Shown here: one piece after another, positions 1,834 to 19,156 of the stretch
Layout of the letters: each line of letters opens with the position of its first letter
Position numbering within the stretch: the first letter of the stretch is position 1
Virus record (IMG/VR): IMGVR_UViG_2548876862_000001
Coordinates: 1 to 19,156 of that record
Direction: 5' to 3' (one strand)
DNA: 19,156 nucleotides
Source: a virus
Lineage: Duplodnaviria; Heunggongvirae; Uroviricota; Caudoviricetes
Notes under the pieces: generated by a model
Databases searched by the model: none
Told to the model about the DNA's origin: nothing
The model's input: only the letters and a program-made list of their open reading frames with translations
Made by a program: the position numbers and the translations under genes

Positions 1834-3310
1834 TAACCTGAGCGACGAAGAGCAAATCGAATTGCTCGAGCTACTCGAAGAAGAAGAGAACTACCGGAAC
1901 ACACACCTGCTATATGAATTTACGCCATACAGCAAACAGCGTGAGTTCATCGACGCCGGGCATGACTATCCAGAGCGATGTTTTATGGCTGGTAACCAGC
2001 TTGGTAAGTCATTTACTGGTGCTGCTGAAGTCGCGTTTCACCTTACCGGGCGTTATCCGGGCACAAAAGGCTATCCTGCTGATGGTAAATATGGCGGTGA
2101 GTGGAAAGGTAAGCGTTTCTATGAGCCTGTTGTCTTCTGGATTGGCGGCGAGACAAACGAGACGGTAACCAAAACGACTCAACGCATCCTGTGCGGTCGT
2201 ATTGAAGAGAATGATGAACCGGGTTACGGTTCAATACCGAAAGAGGACATCATTAGCTGGAAGAAGTCTCCTTTCTTTCCGAACCTTGTTGATCATCTTC
2301 TGGTTAAGCATCACACGGCTGATGGCGTTGAAGATGGCATTTCAATCTGCTACTTCAAACCATACTCGCAAGGCCGTGCACGCTGGCAGGGTGACACAAT
2401 CCACGGCGTGTGGTTTGACGAAGAACCACCATACAGCATTTATGGCGAAGGGCTTACCCGTACCAACAAATATGGGCAATTCTCAATTCTGACGTTTACC
2501 CCGCTGATGGGGATGTCTGACGTTGTTACCAAGTTCCTGAAGAACCCCAGCAAGTCGCAGAAAGTGGTCAACATGACCATCTATGACGCTGAGCACTATA
2601 CCGAAGAGCAGAAAGAGCAAATCATCGCATCCTATCCCGAGCATGAGAGAGAGGCGCGTGCTCGCGGTATTCCTACGATGGGTAGCGGGCGAATCTTCCA
2701 GATACCGGAAGAGACGATTAAGTGTCAGCCGTTCGAGTGTCCTGATCACTTCTACGTAATTGGCGGGATGGATTTCGGATGGGATCACCCGCAGGCGCAG
2801 GTTCAGCTTTGGTGGGATAAGGACGCAGACACAATCTACGTTTCACGCGTGTGGAAGGCGAAAGAAAAAACAGCCGTTCAGGCGTGGGGAGCCGTTAAAT
2901 CATGGGCGCATAAAGTGCCAACTGCATGGCCTCATGACGGAAACCAGCATGAGAAGGGCGGCGGTGAGCAGCTCAAAGGGCAGTACGCGGACGCTGGTTT
3001 TATGATGTTGCAGGAGCATGCGACATGGCCTGATGGCGGTAATGCTGTTGAACCTGGCATCACTGAATTGCGCGACATGATGCTTGATGGTCGCTTCAAA
3101 GTATTCAACACCTGTGAACCATTCTTTGAGGAGTTCCGCCTCTATCACCGTGATGAAAACGGGAAAATCGTCAAGCTTAACGACGACGTTCTCTCAGCCG
3201 TTCGCTATGCATACATGATGCGCCGCTTCGCAAAAATGATGCGCGACATCAAAAAACCAAAAGAGAAAAAGATACCAGCCCCAATCAGGCCCATCGCACG
3301 GAGAACTTAA
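1811..3310 (+). CDS. 2: Terminase large subunit
   Basis: 499 aa, the P22 gp2 length. Walker A-like AGNQLGKS near the N-terminus. GTG start at 1811 with AAGGAG (1795-1800) upstream; overlaps gene 3 by 23 nt. Confidence 0.95.
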
Positions 3311-5470
3311 ATGGCCGACGAAAACAGACTCAATTCCATTCTGTGTAAGTTTGACGCGGACTGGATGGCGAGCGATGAAGCCAGAACCGAGGCGACAAAT
3401 GACCTGTATTTTAGCCGAGTGTCGCAATGGGATGACTGGCTATCAAACTACACGACCCTGCAATATCGCGGACAATTCGATGTTGTTCGCCCGGTGGTCA
3501 GGAAGCTGGTCGCAGAGATGCGCCGGAATCCTATCGACGTTCTCTTCCGACCAAAAGACGGAGCTAATCCTGATGCTGCCGATGTGCTGATGGGGATGTA
3601 TCGTACTGATATGCGCCATAACACGGCAAAAATTGCCGTTAACGTTGGCGTTCGTGAGCAGATAGAGTCCGGCGTTGGTGCATGGCGTCTGGTCACGCAG
3701 TACGAAGACAACGATCCAACAAGCAACAATCAGGTAATTCGACGCCTGCCAATTCATGAAGCCTGCTCACACGTCATATGGGACGCCAACAGCAAGCAGA
3801 TGGATAAGAGCGATGCTAAGCACTGCACGGTGATTAACGCCTTGTCACGCAATGGCTGGAAAGAGTTCGCAGAGGATTACGGTATTGATCCGGACACCTT
3901 ACCATCTTTCCAGAATCCGAACGATACATGGCTGTTTCCGTGGGTATCGAATGATGTCGTCTACGTCGCTGAGTATTACGAGGTCGAAGAGAAGAAAGAG
4001 AAGGTCTTCATCTACCGCGACCCGCTGACAGGTGAGCCGGTCAGCTATTACCAGCAGGATATCAAAGACGTCATCGACGACCTGGCTAATCGTGGATTCA
4101 TTAAGGTAGCAGAGCGCAAGGTGAAGCGTCGGCGTGTGTATAAGTCGATCATCACCTGCACGCAGATACTGAAAGACCGCGAGAAGATAGCCGGAGAGCA
4201 TATTCCAATCGTTCCAGTGTATGGCGAATGGTCATTCGCTGGTGACAAGGAGTGCTACGAAGGAGTGGTAAGGCTGACGAAAGACGGTCAACGCCTTCGT
4301 AACATGATCATGTCGTTCAACGCCGATATCGTTGCTCGTTCACCGAAGAAGAAACCTACCTTCTTCCCTGAGCAAATCGAAGGCTACGAATACATGTACG
4401 GTGGAAATGATGACTATCCGTACTATCTGCAGAACAGGACCGATGAAAACGGTAACGACCTGCCGATTGGTCCAATCTCCTACATGGAAAACCCTGAAGT
4501 GCCGCAAGCCAACGCTTACATGCTTGAGGCTGCCACCAACGCAGTGAAAGAGGTGGCTAGTCTTGGCGTGGATGCGCAGGCGGCAAACTCTCAGGTCGCT
4601 TTCGATACCGTCAATCAACTGAACATGCGGGCAGATCTTGAGACATACGTGTTTCAGGATAACCTGGCTACCGCAATGCGACGTGATGGCGAGATTTATG
4701 CCTCAATGGTCAACGATATTTATGACGTTCCTCGTCATGTAACGCTGACGCTTGAAGATGGAAGCGAGAAAGACGTTCAACTCTATGCGCAAGTTGTCGA
4801 TTATCAGTCCGGCAATGTGGTCACACTCAACGACATTCGCGGTCGCTATGAGTGCTATACGGACGTTGGGCCATCCTTCCAGAGCATGAAGGAACAGAAC
4901 CGCGCAGAGATTCAGGAGTTACTCACCAAGGTTCCGCAAGGTACTCCAGAGTTCCAGATGCTGATGCTGCAATACTTCACGCTGCTTGACGGTAAAGGCG
5001 TCGAGATGATGCGAGAGTACGCGAACAAGCAACTGGTGATGATGGGGCTGAAGAAACCAGAAACACCTGAAGAGATGGTACAGCAGGCTCAACAGCAGCC
5101 GCAGCAGCCATCAGCAGAGCAAATTCAGGCGCAGGGTATCCTTCTGCAAGGTCAGGCTGAATTGCTCAAGGCAGAGAACCAACAGGCGCAGATTCAGGTT
5201 GAAGCTGCCAAGGTTGAAGCCCAAAACCAACTCAACGCCGCGAAGATTGCAGAAATCTTCAACAATATGGACCTCGACAAGCAGGCAGAACTGCGTGAGT
5301 ACCTCAAGCTCGTAGGTCAATTCCAGCAACAGCGCAGCAAAGATGCTCGTGCTAACGCTGAGCTGCTTCTTAAAGATGCAGACCAGACTCATTCACAACG
5401 CATGGATTTCGCGAATCTTATGCGTCAAGTTCAAATCCCCTCCGGCGGAGTAGCCGAGACACCTCAATAA
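3311..5470 (+). CDS. 1: Portal protein
   Basis: 719 aa beginning [28 protein letters not shown], with a Gln-rich helical C-terminus. Strongly similar to P22 gp1 by recall. ATG directly follows the TerL stop. Confidence 0.95.
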
Positions 5471-9868: not shown

Positions 9869-10569
9869 TGGTTGATTCATCACTGAATAATCCTGTCGCG
9901 GTTCAGGCTACGCGCCTTGATGCTTCAATTTTGCCACGCAATATATTCAGCCAGTCTTACATGCTGTATGTCATAAATCAGGGTGCTGATGTTGGCGCAA
10001 TTGCCGGGAAGGCAAATCAGGCTGGTCAGGGCGCTTACGATGCTCAGGTGAAAAACGATGAACAGGACGTCGAGCTGGCAGATCACGATGCAAGAATCAC
10101 CGCAAACACAAAAGCGATAAATCTCCTTGAGGTCAGGTTAACAACCGCCGAAGGGAAGATAGTCGTACTACGTAGCGATGTTGATTACTTGCTGGATGAG
10201 GTTATCGATATTCAGGCGCATCTGGTCACTGTTGACCAAAGACTGGATGGCGTAGAAAGCGATGTATCTGACATTAAGAGTGATTACGTATCGAAAACCG
10301 TAACCGAATCGCAGTCTCTTGCGTCACCGCTGGATGTAAAAACATCATATTCAGTTGATGGAATTCAGGTTGTTGGAGCAAGAAATACCGGATGGACTGC
10401 AGCCACAGGTACGCCACTTCTTGGCTCATTCAACGCTAACCAGTCATACACTGTCGGCACTACGTACACGCAATCCGAAGTCGCAGCTCTCGCTACAGGT
10501 TTGCAGCAGGCGCGGCAGCGTATTCTGGCGCTTGAAACAGCACTTAGATTACATGGGCTGATTGACTGA
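9868..10569 (+). CDS. 26: Tail needle protein gp26
   Basis: 233 aa, the P22 gp26 length. N-terminus [27 protein letters not shown] matches by recall, followed by a heptad-rich helical core. Start overlaps the gp10 stop. Confidence 0.85.
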
Positions 10570-11024
10570 TGATTACATTCAAACCAACGCGAAACATCGA
10601 CCTGATAGAAGCAGTAGGAAATCACCCTGACATTATTGCTGGAAGCAACAACGGTGATGGATATGACTACAAGCCTGAATGCCGTTACTTTGAGGTGAAC
10701 GTGCACGGTCAGTTTGGCGGCATTGTTTACTATCAGGAGATTCAGCCGCTGACATTCGATTGCCACGCCATGTACCTGCCAGAGATTCGCGGCTTCAGCA
10801 AGGAAATCGGGCTGGCGTTCTGGCGATACATTCTGACTAACACCACCGTTCAGTGCGTCACATCGTTCGCCGCACGCAAATTCCGCCACGGGCAGATTTA
10901 CTGCGCAATGATTGGCCTTAAGCGTGTCGGAACCATCAAGAAATACTTTAAAGGCGTGGATGACGTGACATTTTACAGTGCTACACGCGAAGAACTAATC
11001 GACTTCCTGAATCACGGGAGATAG
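10569..11024 (+). CDS. 14: gp14-like protein
   Basis: 151 aa in the gene 14 position between 26 and 7. Start overlaps the gp26 stop. Assignment is by synteny only. Confidence 0.65.
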   Translation: MITFKPTRNIDLIEAVGNHPDIIAGSNNGDGYDYKPECRYFEVNVHGQFGGIVYYQEIQPLTFDCHAMYLPEIRGFSKEIGLAFWRYILTNTTVQCVTSFAARKFRHGQIYCAMIGLKRVGTIKKYFKGVDDVTFYSATREELIDFLNHGR

Positions 11025-11026
11025 CC

Positions 11027-18362: not shown

Positions 18363-19156
18363 ATGACAGATTCAATAAATGCCAATGTTGTAGTGAGTAT
18401 GCCTTCGCAACTCTTCACTATGGCGCGTTCTTTTAAAGCCGTAGCTAATGGCAAAATTTATATCGGTAAAATTGACACTGACCCGGTAAATCCTGAAAAC
18501 CAGATTCAGGTTTATTTAGAGAACGAAGACGGCTCTCACGTTCCTGTATCGCAACCAATCATCATTAACGCTGCTGGATATCCGGTATATAACGGACAGA
18601 TTGCCAAATTCGTAACCGTGCAAGGCCATTCTATGGCTGTTTATGATGCGTATGGTGCGCAGCAGTTCTATTTTTCGAATGTGCTGAAGTATGACCCTGA
18701 CCAACTCAGGCAAGATCTTGCATCTCAAGGAGGTGTTAATCTGGTAAACGGAGCTATCTCACAGGAAGATCTTGTTTTGCAGTCGATCACAAAAATTCCA
18801 AGTTATGATAATTCTAACGTAGTCCAGGCGTGGCGCGATAGTGTTGCGACCTACGGGTATGTTTACTTCTCTAATCATTCAAAAAATCAGATGGTGTACA
18901 CCGTACCGTCTACAGCTGCTAACGCTTCTTTCCTTGCGAACAGTAAAGTAATCATTGATAAAAATGTCACCCTGAGATTCGACAGTGATCTGTACTCACT
19001 GTTTAAATCGTTGCAGTACGAGGGGGAGGGTACGTTTGAATTTACGCACCTGAACTTTAAAGCAACCGGTGGAGAAGTGGATTATCTGGCTAAGCAGGCC
19101 ATCCTCAACCGAAACCCTATTCGCATGAAGCGAGTGGAATGGTCAGATTGTAAAGT
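18363..19156 (+). CDS. 9: Tailspike protein, partial (3' end beyond the window): conserved head-binding domain plus divergent receptor-binding region
   Basis: ATG 18363 follows GGAG (18351-18354) by 8 nt; open to the window end. Residues 1-114 ([12 protein letters not shown]...[34 protein letters not shown]...[14 protein letters not shown]....NVLKYDPDQ) match the P22 gp9 head-binding domain by recall; the rest does not. Confidence 0.9.

What the first reader, a model, noticed from the sequence alone, without database searches (positions are those of the whole stretch)
18363..19156. Mosaic tailspike: P22-type head-binding domain joined to an unrelated receptor-binding region
Residues 1-114 match the P22 gp9 head-binding domain closely, ending at VLKYDPDQ. 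From about nt 18705 the sequence no longer matches the P22 receptor-binding domain as I recall it and the DNA becomes more AT-rich. This is the usual module swap that retargets tailspikes to a different O-antigen or capsule, so the host serotype should differ from that of P22.
Basis: partly seen in the sequence, partly recalled or inferred. Interest (0 to 1): 0.45.

Follow-up and report, generated by a model that had tools for sequence, protein, structure and literature searches.

The report
P22-type tailspike carrying an esterase module
The tailspike gene of this P22-like E. coli phage keeps the usual virion-attachment domain, but its host-recognition part is an uncharacterised esterase-type module found only in E. 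coli of serogroup O88, so the phage probably strips acetyl groups from the O88 surface sugar instead of cutting it.

Summary
An ORF starts at 18363 and runs off the window end (264 codons). Residues 1-114 are a P22-type head-binding domain (Pfam PF09008, E 3e-66), about 97% identical to HK620. Similarity to every known P22-like tailspike stops at VLKYDPDQ (nt 18704-18710). The claimed shift to AT-richness is not real (GC 42.4% before, 43.8% after).

The module-swap interpretation holds, but the new module is not a beta-helix glycosidase. Full-length alleles (745-746 aa) come from E. coli prophages that are identical or nearly identical over the in-window segment. They show a neck, a small N-domain, a lectin-like beta-sandwich, an SGNH/GDSL esterase domain and a C-terminal beta-sandwich. 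All four SGNH catalytic blocks are invariant across homologues down to 23% identity.

The same ~630-aa module is fused to at least four other virion adaptors. It occurs in 13 of 5,426 complete E. coli genomes, and all 13 are O88 (25 O88 genomes in total). It is under purifying selection.

Best reading: an O88 O-antigen-specific, probably deacetylating, tailspike that works like G7C gp63.1 but shares no detectable sequence similarity with it. This is a new member of a known kind and moderately interesting. Enzyme activity and substrate are inferred, not shown.

The parts
18351..18354 (+). Shine-Dalgarno-like GGAG, 8 nt upstream of the tailspike ATG
   Evidence: Read directly from the sequence.
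18363..18704 (+). Head-binding (virion adaptor) domain of the tailspike, aa 1-114, ending in VLKYDPDQ
   Evidence: Pfam PF09008, E 2.9e-66, full profile coverage. PDB Sf6 gp14 E 2e-65 and P22 gp9 E ~1e-49. About 97% amino-acid identity to HK620.
18705..18755 (+). Recombination junction and neck: [17 protein letters not shown] (aa 115-131). This is the first segment shared with the same module on other adaptors (LRxxLAxxGGVxLVNGA).
   Evidence: HK620 DNA similarity ends at 18710, and other relatives end at 18673-18718. Alignment A2 shows the module's similarity to PF18668-adaptor proteins beginning here. A helix is predicted at 112-127.
18780..19133 (+). N-terminal alpha/beta domain of the receptor-binding module (about aa 140-257), fold unassigned
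   Evidence: AF2 pLDDT is 84-93 in the full-length model and 77 when modelled alone. There is no significant PDB fold match (best 8opz, E 0.048) and no Pfam hit. It matches phrog_17606 positions 122-271. It always travels with the SGNH part in homologues.
19141..19156 (+). First residues of the lectin-like beta-sandwich domain. The gene is cut here by the window end. About 482 further codons (beta-sandwich, SGNH esterase, C-terminal beta-sandwich) lie outside the window.
   Evidence: DNA is 100% identical over 18705-19156 to E. coli PEC301, where the gene is 745 codons. P0001 (746 aa) differs at 2 of 264 residues. Domain layout comes from AF2.
17965..17986 (.). Bidirectional terminator-like hairpin between the antirepressor gene and the Arc/Mnt-like gene upstream of the tailspike. 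It bounds the immI-like region that precedes the tailspike.
   Evidence: Terminator scan. Arc domain in 17976-18311(-).

Best explanation
The ORF is the 5' third of the single tailspike gene of a P22-like (Lederbergvirus-type) temperate phage of E. coli. Its N-terminal 114 residues are the conserved trimeric adaptor that plugs the spike into the tail hub. At [15 protein letters not shown], recombination has joined this adaptor to a ~630-residue receptor-binding cassette. The cassette circulates among unrelated phage chassis.

The cassette contains a neck, a small N-domain, a lectin/CBM-like beta-sandwich, an SGNH/GDSL esterase domain and a C-terminal beta-sandwich. The SGNH catalytic residues in P0001 numbering are Ser453, Gly488, Asn516, Asp617 and His620.

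I infer that the spike binds the O88 O-antigen of E. coli and hydrolyses O-acetyl esters on it instead of cleaving the glycan chain. That would be receptor modification as shown for phage G7C gp63.1, and it would let the virion work down through the O-antigen layer to the outer membrane, where the needle and ejection proteins act.

Shown: the mosaic structure, the junction, conservation of the catalytic motifs, the esterase-like fold, purifying selection, and the exclusive association with O88.

Inferred: trimeric state, esterase activity, O-acetyl as the substrate, and absence of any glycosidase activity.
For: Mosaic and junction.

Full-length gene: recovered from identical or near-identical prophages.

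SGNH identity:
- Pfam Lipase_GDSL_2 spans residues 451-628 against profile positions 3-178 of 178. It is weak for this allele (E 8e-4) but reaches E 6e-14 among homologues, and 15 of 29 match.
- The invariant columns are GDST 451-454, G488, GTN 514-516 and D617/H620, across 29 homologues down to 23% identity.
- The AF2 model has pLDDT of about 85-97 over residues 140-746.
- Foldseek finds carbohydrate esterases built as beta-sandwich plus SGNH: CE2 2waa at 7e-9, PbeAcXE 7tog at 9e-9, YxiM, sialate O-acetylesterases and TesA (TM-score on target 0.67).
- Foldseek also finds galectin-like lectins for the sandwich and SGNH phage tail proteins, including the PP99 tail spike. Apart from matches to the head-binding domain of Sf6 and P22 tailspikes, there is no beta-helix tailspike match to the receptor-binding module.

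Modularity: the same cassette sits behind PF09008, PF18668, PF03906 and PF12571 adaptors.

Receptor:
- The cassette is found in 13 of 5,426 complete E. coli genomes, and all 13 are among the 25 that carry O88 wzy at 99% or more. The hypergeometric P is 4e-30, or 2e-17 for the seven non-clonal P22-like lysogens.
- The carriers span three phage chassis and at least two integration sites.

Substrate plausibility:
- The O88 cluster has two hexapeptide acyltransferase genes and no annotated aminotransferase.
- Several of these prophages carry AT3-SGNH O-acetyltransferase-type cassettes next to the spike gene.

Functionality: seven alleles are intact, and dN/dS is 0.11-0.14 for the divergent pairs.

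Precedent: G7C gp63.1, the epsilon15 petal domain and Klebsiella prophage SGNH receptor-binding proteins are active esterases (PMC13123978; bioRxiv 10.64898/2026.07.31.742079).
Against: - Only residues 1-264 are in the window. The esterase domain is inferred from near-identical alleles, not read from this sequence.
- This allele's Pfam GDSL score (20.4 bits) is below the gathering cut-off (32.9).
- No activity data exist for any member.
- I could not obtain the published O88 repeat-unit structure, so O-acetylation of O88 is inferred from gene content only.
- The O88 link is correlative, and prophage hosts are not always the adsorption hosts.
- A close homologue (90% identity) occurs in Enterobacter, so the recognised epitope may not be unique to O88.
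- The model is a monomer, so the trimer and the geometry of the active site were not examined.
- The N-domain (aa 140-257) has an unassigned fold, so a second activity cannot be excluded.
Confidence: 0.66

Rival explanations
1. This is a conventional depolymerase swap. The new module cleaves glycosidic bonds of a different O-antigen or capsule, as in P22, Sf6 and HK620, using the unassigned N-domain or the beta-sandwich. The SGNH domain would be accessory, as in epsilon15 gp20, which has both activities.
For: The N-domain motif ([18 protein letters not shown]...NVTLRFD, and DYGAKGDG...VRFPR in distant members) resembles the helix cap and first rungs of pectin-lyase-type beta-helices. The best, non-significant fold hits include beta-helix tailspikes (8opz E 0.048, 4mr0, 6tgf, 4xnf). 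Epsilon15 shows that esterase and endorhamnosidase activities can coexist (bioRxiv 10.64898/2026.07.31.742079).
Against: The confident AF2 model predicts no extended beta-helix anywhere. No glycosidase or lyase family appears in Pfam. There are no significant beta-helix fold hits to the module. The stub is only about 115 residues. The strictly invariant residues map to the SGNH blocks.
Confidence: 0.08
2. The module recognises the cell through its lectin-like beta-sandwich domains. The SGNH domain acts on something other than the O-antigen (acetylated capsule, colanic acid, ECA, or an outer-membrane lipid ester), or is mainly structural.
For: SGNH enzymes include lipases and lysophospholipases such as TesA, which is among the fold hits. 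In Klebsiella prophages, SGNH receptor-binding proteins were on average less K-locus-specific than beta-helix ones (PMC13123978). A 90%-identical homologue exists in Enterobacter.
Against: A non-O-antigen target does not explain the exclusive co-occurrence with the O88 wzy (13 of 13, with none in 5,401 other genomes). The top fold hits are carbohydrate esterases with the same beta-sandwich plus SGNH layout, not lipases. The catalytic blocks are invariant, so the domain is unlikely to be merely structural.
Confidence: 0.16
3. The O88 association reflects shared ancestry of the host strains (one clone that inherited a prophage), not receptor specificity. In that case the receptor remains unknown.
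For: SRY149, SRY157 and SRY206 are evidently one clone, with the same coordinates. Only 25 O88 genomes exist in the collection.
Against: The module sits on three different phage chassis: P22-like, an 800-aa L002 type, and a siphovirus-like prophage with tape measure and TipJ. The integration sites differ (argW-yfdC versus ybhB-bioA). Module DNA has diverged by up to 28%. The hosts come from pig, human, horse, chicken and cattle in at least seven countries.
Confidence: 0.05

Closest known systems
P22 gp9 / Sf6 gp14 / HK620 gp9 tailspikes (Lederbergvirus)
   Same: The N-terminal head-binding domain is homologous: PF09008, about 97% amino-acid identity to HK620, about 90% to Sf6 and about 70% to P22. 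The gene position is the same, at the end of the late operon after the immI-like region. The recombination junction is the same, at ...YDPDQ.
   Different: Those spikes carry a right-handed parallel beta-helix endoglycosidase. Here nothing after residue 114 is similar in sequence or fold, no beta-helix is predicted, and the enzymatic domain is an SGNH esterase.
Phage G7C gp63.1 esterase tailspike (PDB 4QNL)
   Same: It is a virion spike whose catalytic domain is an SGNH/GDSL esterase. It was shown experimentally to deacetylate, not cleave, the host O-antigen (as summarised in PMC13123978). This is the functional model I propose for the present module.
   Different: There is no detectable sequence similarity (best BLASTP E 1.3). 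The adaptor differs (PF18668). The domain order differs: in gp63.1 the SGNH domain (270-485) precedes a galactose-binding-like domain and the G7C_C domain, while here the beta-sandwich precedes SGNH. G7C also has a second receptor-binding protein (gp66), whereas a P22-like virion has only this spike.
Carbohydrate esterases with an N-terminal beta-sandwich plus SGNH domain (CE2 2WAA, PbeAcXE 7TOG, YxiM 2O14)
   Same: These are the best structural matches to the module. They have the same two-domain order (jelly-roll or lectin-like sandwich, then SGNH). Foldseek E is 7e-9 to 5e-7.
   Different: Identity is 9-13%. They are cellular, soluble enzymes acting on plant or other polysaccharides. They have no virion adaptor, no extra N-domain and no C-terminal sandwich.
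Salmonella phage epsilon15 gp20 tailspike with SGNH 'petal' domain
   Same: It is a podovirus spike carrying an SGNH esterase active on O-antigen acetyl groups (bioRxiv 10.64898/2026.07.31.742079).
   Different: In epsilon15 the esterase is an appendage on a beta-helix endorhamnosidase. Here no beta-helix or glycosidase is predicted.
SGNH-domain receptor-binding proteins of Klebsiella prophages, and the Pectobacterium phage PP99 tail spike
   Same: These are temperate-phage or podovirus receptor-binding proteins that rely on deacetylation rather than depolymerisation. Esterase activity was confirmed for two Klebsiella proteins and for PP99 (PMC13123978; PMC6989608). The PP99 spike appears among the BFVD fold hits.
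   Different: The adaptors, hosts and targets differ (capsule K-types, Pectobacterium O-polysaccharide). Only the SGNH fold is shared.

Membership tests
P22-like tailspike (gp9 family) | N-terminal head-binding domain (Pfam PF09008) | tested here: met
   E 2.9e-66 with full profile coverage. Matches PDB Sf6 and P22 head-binding domains.
P22-like tailspike (gp9 family) | Gene located at the end of a P22-type late operon, after the ejection-protein genes and the immI-like region | tested here: met
   The window matches the late operons of P22-like phages and prophages at 95-96% identity. Inj_translocase, SieA-like, Arc and antirepressor genes lie upstream.
P22-like tailspike (gp9 family) | Right-handed parallel beta-helix receptor-binding/endoglycosidase domain | tested here: not met
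   There is no sequence match after residue ~122. The AF2 model has no beta-helix. Apart from the Sf6 and P22 tailspike matches carried by the head-binding domain, Foldseek gives no beta-helix tailspike hits.
SGNH/GDSL hydrolase superfamily | Conserved blocks I (GDS), II (G), III (GxN) and V (DxxH), with catalytic Ser, Asp and His | tested here: met
   G451-D452-S453-T454, G488, G514-T515-N516 and D617/H620 are invariant in 29 homologues down to 23% identity. The Ser-Gly-Asn spacing (35 and 63 residues) is like that of E. coli TesA, whose numbers I recall from memory.
SGNH/GDSL hydrolase superfamily | Match to a curated family model above its gathering threshold | tested here: inconclusive
   This allele scores 20.4 bits on PF13472 against a cut-off of 32.9, although it covers the full profile. 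Fifteen of 29 homologues match at E of 1e-3 or better, with a best E of 6e-14.
SGNH/GDSL hydrolase superfamily | Three-layer alpha/beta/alpha flavodoxin-like fold | tested here: met
   AF2 pLDDT is about 85-97 over residues 445-645. Foldseek to TesA gives TM-score on target 0.67-0.68, and to the sialate esterase 7pzh 0.66. CE2 and PbeAcXE match at E ~1e-8.
SGNH/GDSL hydrolase superfamily | Esterase activity | not testable with these tools
   Needs a p-nitrophenyl acetate or polysaccharide assay.
G7C gp63.1-type esterase tailspike | Homology to gp63.1 domains (Pfam Gp63_3rd_G7C, G7C_GBD, G7C_C) or overall sequence similarity | tested here: not met
   Best BLASTP E is 1.3. None of those Pfam families hits P0001, whereas all of them hit gp63.1.
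G7C gp63.1-type esterase tailspike | Deacetylates the host O-antigen without chain cleavage, and this is required for infection | not testable with these tools
   Only circumstantial: the exclusive O88 association and acyltransferase genes in the O88 cluster.
O-antigen-specific receptor-binding protein (serogroup O88) | Occurrence restricted to hosts of one O serogroup, irrespective of phage chassis | tested here: met
   All 13 carriers are O88 out of 5,426 genomes, of which 25 are O88 in total. The carriers span three chassis and at least two integration sites.

The most novel reading that the evidence does not exclude
The esterase spike and the AT3-SGNH O-acetyltransferase cassette that sits directly behind it in several of these prophages may form a phage-borne 'eraser/writer' pair for O88 O-antigen acetylation. 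In this reading the prophage acetylates the O-antigen to shut out competitors. Its own spike, or that of relatives, removes the mark and so can still infect converted lysogens. The two functions would travel together between podovirus and siphovirus chassis as one host-range unit. A P22-like virion would then cross the O-antigen layer with no glycan cleavage at all.
Probability: 0.15. Interest if true: 0.65.

Novelty: new member of a known kind. Interest (0 to 1): 0.4.

Why it matters
P22, Sf6 and HK620 are the reference systems for how podoviruses get through the O-antigen layer, and in all of them the spike cuts the polysaccharide. A P22-type virion whose only spike is an esterase would give a clean comparison for that question. 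It would show whether deacetylation alone suffices for O-antigen traversal and LPS-triggered DNA ejection.

It would do so in a genetically tractable chassis with a defined serogroup. O88 has an NCTC reference strain that lacks the module. The work also assigns a probable specificity (O88) and a probable activity to a protein family currently labelled 'unknown function' (phrog_17606) or generically 'SGNH/GDSL hydrolase'. That is useful for phage host-range prediction and for O88-specific diagnostics or engineered spikes.

It extends to E. coli O-antigens the recent observation that SGNH esterases are common receptor-binding enzymes of temperate phages.

Tried and rejected
1. AT-richness as a marker of the swap: rejected. 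GC is 0.424 before the junction and 0.438 after.
2. Sequence search of the PDB with residues 115-745: no hit even at E 10. A profile of the in-window segment gave only a spurious sliding-clamp hit at E 0.0017.
3. tblastn of residues 115-264 against 50,697 phage genomes: no match.
4. tblastn of residues 265-746 against the same phage genomes: only 24-30% identical 'hypothetical' proteins in Aeromonas phiA047 and Enterobacter SABI and SonariX, plus a 59-aa fragment in ESCO9. No isolated phage carries this module.
5. Homology to G7C gp63.1: rejected at the sequence level.
6. Idea that the in-window N-domain is a truncated beta-helix cap: only suggestive. Foldseek's best hit is E 0.048, and the PF12708 match in one distant member is E 0.027. 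Left as inconclusive.
7. Looking up the O88 repeat-unit structure and its O-acetylation: the primary paper (Torgov et al. 1996, Carbohydr Res 283:223) is not held. The E. coli O-antigen review text held here does not give the structure.
8. Literature search for a P22-like or Lederbergvirus spike with an SGNH domain: nothing relevant found. That is absence in the held library only.
9. Casjens and Grose 2016 on P22-like prophage tailspike types could not be read.
10. Relatedness of the spike's SGNH domain to the SGNH domain of the downstream acetyltransferase cassette: none.

Full report
**1. Observation**

The window carries a P22-like (Lederbergvirus-type) late operon. It matches phages APC_JM3.2 and IME10 and many E. 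coli prophages at 95-96% identity. A related prophage is annotated with the same gene order: terminase, portal, scaffold, coat, gp4, gp10, ejection proteins, SieA, Arc-type regulators, antirepressor and tailspike. Pfam and PHROGs scans of the window's own ORFs confirm the ejection-protein translocase, the SieA-like protein, the Arc-like regulator and the antirepressors.

It runs to the last base of the window without a stop, giving 264 codons.

- Residues 4-114 match Pfam Head_binding PF09008 across the entire profile (E 2.9e-66).
- They also match the solved head-binding domains of Sf6 gp14 (E 2e-65) and P22 gp9 (E ~1e-49).
- Against HK620, the amino-acid identity is 0.89-1.0 in 19-residue blocks up to residue 114 and about 0.2 beyond. 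The DNA match ends at window 18710.
- All other relatives lose similarity between 18673 and 18718.

The junction at VLKYDPDQ | LRQDLAS is therefore real and sharp.

GC is 0.424 before the junction and 0.438 after it.

**2. Recovering the rest of the gene**

Residues 115-264 have no tblastn match in 50,697 phage genomes. At the DNA level, no phage record matches the tailspike gene beyond about nt 364 of the ORF.

In complete E. coli genomes, nine prophages carry the post-junction DNA at 97.6-100% identity. Strain PEC301 is 100% identical over 18705-19156. There the gene is 745 codons and lies next to intS and tRNA-Arg (argW).

A database protein, P0001 (746 aa), differs from the window's 264 residues at two positions. 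It is encoded in the same context. I used P0001 as the full-length proxy. Everything said below about residues beyond 264 rests on that proxy.

**3. What the module is**

Pfam gives a weak but full-length match of residues 451-628 to Lipase_GDSL_2. The E-value is 8e-4, and the score of 20.4 bits is below the 32.9-bit cut-off.

A search with residues 115-745 returned 87 homologues, almost all covering 96-100% of the query. So the whole ~630-residue block travels as a unit.

In an alignment of 29 homologues reaching 23% identity, the invariant columns include G451-D452-S453-T454, G488, G514-T515-N516 and D617/H620. These are SGNH blocks I, II, III and V. Fifteen of the 29 match the Pfam GDSL model on their own, with a best E of 6e-14.

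An AlphaFold2 model built on this alignment is confident from residue ~140 to 746, with pLDDT mostly 85-97. It shows:

| Residues | Element |
|---|---|
| 112-127 | helix (neck) |
| ~140-257 | alpha/beta N-domain |
| ~260-440 | beta-sandwich |
| ~445-645 | alpha/beta/alpha domain holding the SGNH blocks |
| ~655-746 | C-terminal beta-sandwich |

Foldseek against the PDB returns the Sf6 and P22 head-binding domains first. After those come two-domain carbohydrate esterases built as beta-sandwich plus SGNH:

- CE2 2waa (7e-9), PbeAcXE 7tog (9e-9), a polyvinyl-alcohol esterase, YxiM and SsfX3.
- Galectin-like lectins match the sandwich.
- Sialate O-acetylesterases and TesA match the SGNH domain (TM-score on target 0.66-0.68).

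Apart from those Sf6 and P22 tailspikes, which match through the head-binding domain, no beta-helix tailspike appears.

Against predicted viral structures, the hits are SGNH-bearing tail proteins. They include the Pectobacterium phage PP99 tail spike, which the title of its paper describes as a deacetylase.

The in-window N-domain modelled on its own (pLDDT 77) has no significant fold match. The best is the Acinetobacter phage APK16 tailspike at E 0.048, and G7C gp63.1 comes at E 0.86. It has no Pfam hit. Its sequence resembles a beta-helix N-cap, but that remains unproven.

**4. Modularity**

The same cassette is fused to several N-terminal adaptors:

- the P22 head-binding domain (PF09008)
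- the TSP1/gp66 N-terminal domain (PF18668)
- the T7 fibre N-terminus (PF03906)
- a tail-collar domain (PF12571)
- Calx-beta and YadA-stalk regions

Similarity among these proteins begins at the LRxxLAxxGGVxLVNGA motif, immediately after the P22-type YDPDQ. This is the classical adaptor/receptor-binding-domain exchange.

PHROGs holds a family, phrog_17606 ('unknown function'), that matches P0001 end to end. So the architecture has been sequenced before but not interpreted.

Among isolated phages, only 24-30% identical 'hypothetical' proteins exist. They are in Aeromonas phiA047 and Enterobacter SABI and SonariX.

**5. Receptor**

PEC301's O-antigen locus is annotated with 'O88 family' wzx and wzy. 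The O88 wzy occurs at 99% identity or more in only 25 of 5,426 complete genomes. All 12 genomes that matched the module by megablast are among those 25.

A more sensitive blastn search finds the module in 13 genomes, and all 13 are O88. They include XJ55, at 72% DNA identity. The hypergeometric probability is 4e-30 for the first 12 genomes, and 2e-17 for the seven non-clonal P22-like lysogens.

The carriers sit on three different phage chassis:

- P22-like
- an 800-aa type followed by lysis genes (602687, HN257, NADC1036)
- a siphovirus-like prophage with tape measure and TipJ (XJ55)

They use at least two integration sites, argW-yfdC and ybhB-bioA. Their hosts come from several animal species and countries. 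A purely clonal explanation is therefore unlikely.

I conclude that the module is specific for the O88 O-antigen. This is an inference from association, not a demonstration.

**6. Substrate and mechanism**

The O88 cluster contains two hexapeptide-repeat acyltransferase genes next to rfbBAC, an epimerase/reductase, manB and manC. No aminotransferase is annotated. This suggests O-acetylated sugars, but I could not read the published O88 structure.

By analogy with G7C gp63.1, which removes an O-acetyl group from LPS without degrading the chain and is required for infection (as summarised in PMC13123978), I propose that this spike binds O88 chains and deacetylates them. The epsilon15 esterase petal domain supports the same analogy.

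The module is functional in the evolutionary sense. Seven alleles are intact with identical length, and dN/dS is 0.11-0.14 for the divergent pairs.

**7. Comparison and membership**

The protein is a member of the P22-like tailspike family only through its adaptor and its genomic position. The defining beta-helix is absent.

It is a member of the SGNH superfamily by motifs and fold.

It is not a member of the G7C gp63.1 family. There is no sequence similarity, none of gp63.1's Pfam domains is present, and the domain order is different. It probably works like gp63.1 all the same.

SGNH receptor-binding proteins are now recognised as common in temperate phages (PMC13123978). I found no report of one on a P22-like chassis, but the held library is incomplete.

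**8. Side observation relevant to function**

In several carriers an acyltransferase cassette follows the spike gene on the opposite strand. It is AT3 (PF01757) plus SGNH.

- In SRY149 it is a fused 595-aa protein.
- In PigCaeca_1 and Z1322HEC0003 the SGNH part is annotated as a separate ORF, 79% identical to the C-terminal half of the SRY149 protein.
- XJ55 carries a distant version interrupted by IS5.

From my own knowledge, this is the architecture of O-antigen O-acetyltransferases of the OafA/OafB type. It also occupies the position of oac in Sf6.

PEC301, the P0001 contig, GPEC1240, A30, 602687 and HN257 lack the cassette. The pairing of a putative acetyl 'eraser' spike with an acetyl 'writer' conversion gene is suggestive but untested.

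**9. Verdict**

The module-swap interpretation is right in outline, but the swapped-in module is an esterase-type cassette, probably specific for O88.

This is a new member of a known kind (esterase tailspikes) and is moderately interesting. The main caveats are that two-thirds of the gene lies outside the window and that activity, substrate and oligomeric state are inferred.

Noticed in passing
L008:3422-4117(-) and 4810->(-); L009 same; L012:5428-7215(-); L011:7906-8589(-) and 10360-11424(-): An acyltransferase-3 (PF01757) plus SGNH cassette lies directly downstream of the esterase spike gene in several O88 lysogens. It is fused as a 595-aa protein in SRY149, annotated as separate ORFs in PigCaeca_1 and Z1322HEC0003, and is a distant version interrupted by IS5 in XJ55. 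It looks like an O-antigen O-acetyltransferase lysogenic-conversion module. PEC301, L003, GPEC1240, A30, 602687 and HN257 lack it.
   Followed up: partly
window 15521-16159 (-): A LexA/CI-like repressor (HTH_3 plus Peptidase_S24) is encoded in the immI-like region, between the SieA-like gene and the antirepressor genes. It is absent from the immI-like regions of the related prophages I looked at (L001, L003, L005), which carry Arc-family regulators and an antirepressor there.
   Followed up: no
window 16401-17132 (+) and 17170-17946 (+): There are two consecutive antirepressor-type genes. One has Bro-N plus P22_AR_C domains. The other matches phrog_1726 'anti-repressor' and has no Pfam hit. 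They are followed by a bidirectional terminator-like hairpin at 17965-17986 and an Arc/Mnt-like gene at 17976-18311(-).
   Followed up: no
window 14966-15457 (-): A SieA-like superinfection-exclusion gene (phrog_7745, E 7e-109) lies immediately after the last ejection-protein gene.
   Followed up: no
L010:3501-3677 (Escherichia phage vB_EcoM_ESCO9, OM386654.1): The last 59 residues of the spike (C-terminal beta-sandwich) match this Justusliebigvirus at 95% identity. The match overlaps a tiny 82-aa ORF annotated 'endo-N-acetylneuraminidase', just after a tail fibre gene. It looks like a recombination remnant, and it suggests that the C-terminal domain is itself exchangeable.
   Followed up: partly
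NZ_CP076267.1 (38,709-bp 'plasmid' of E. coli NADC1036), positions 2014-3666: The same esterase-module tail gene is present both on the NADC1036 chromosome and on a 38.7-kb record labelled as a plasmid. The plasmid record may be the excised, circular form of the prophage, which would mean an inducible phage.
   Followed up: no
L007:8539-9675: An ISEc1 transposase gene is inserted between galF and the first acyltransferase gene of the O88 O-antigen cluster in PEC301. An ISApl1 lies between ugd and wzzB.
   Followed up: no
L014:1-2752: In E. coli A30 the region upstream of the intact esterase spike gene holds an IS66 element, a truncated HicB-like gene and a 65-codon fragment of a second tailspike gene. 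This prophage appears to be partly degraded.
   Followed up: no
P0014: A protein 90% identical over the esterase module, but with a PF18668 adaptor, is named by NCBI as 'MULTISPECIES: SGNH/GDSL hydrolase family protein [Enterobacter]'. More distant members occur in Shewanella baltica, Pseudescherichia vulneris and Buttiauxella. The recognised epitope may therefore exist outside E. coli O88.
   Followed up: no
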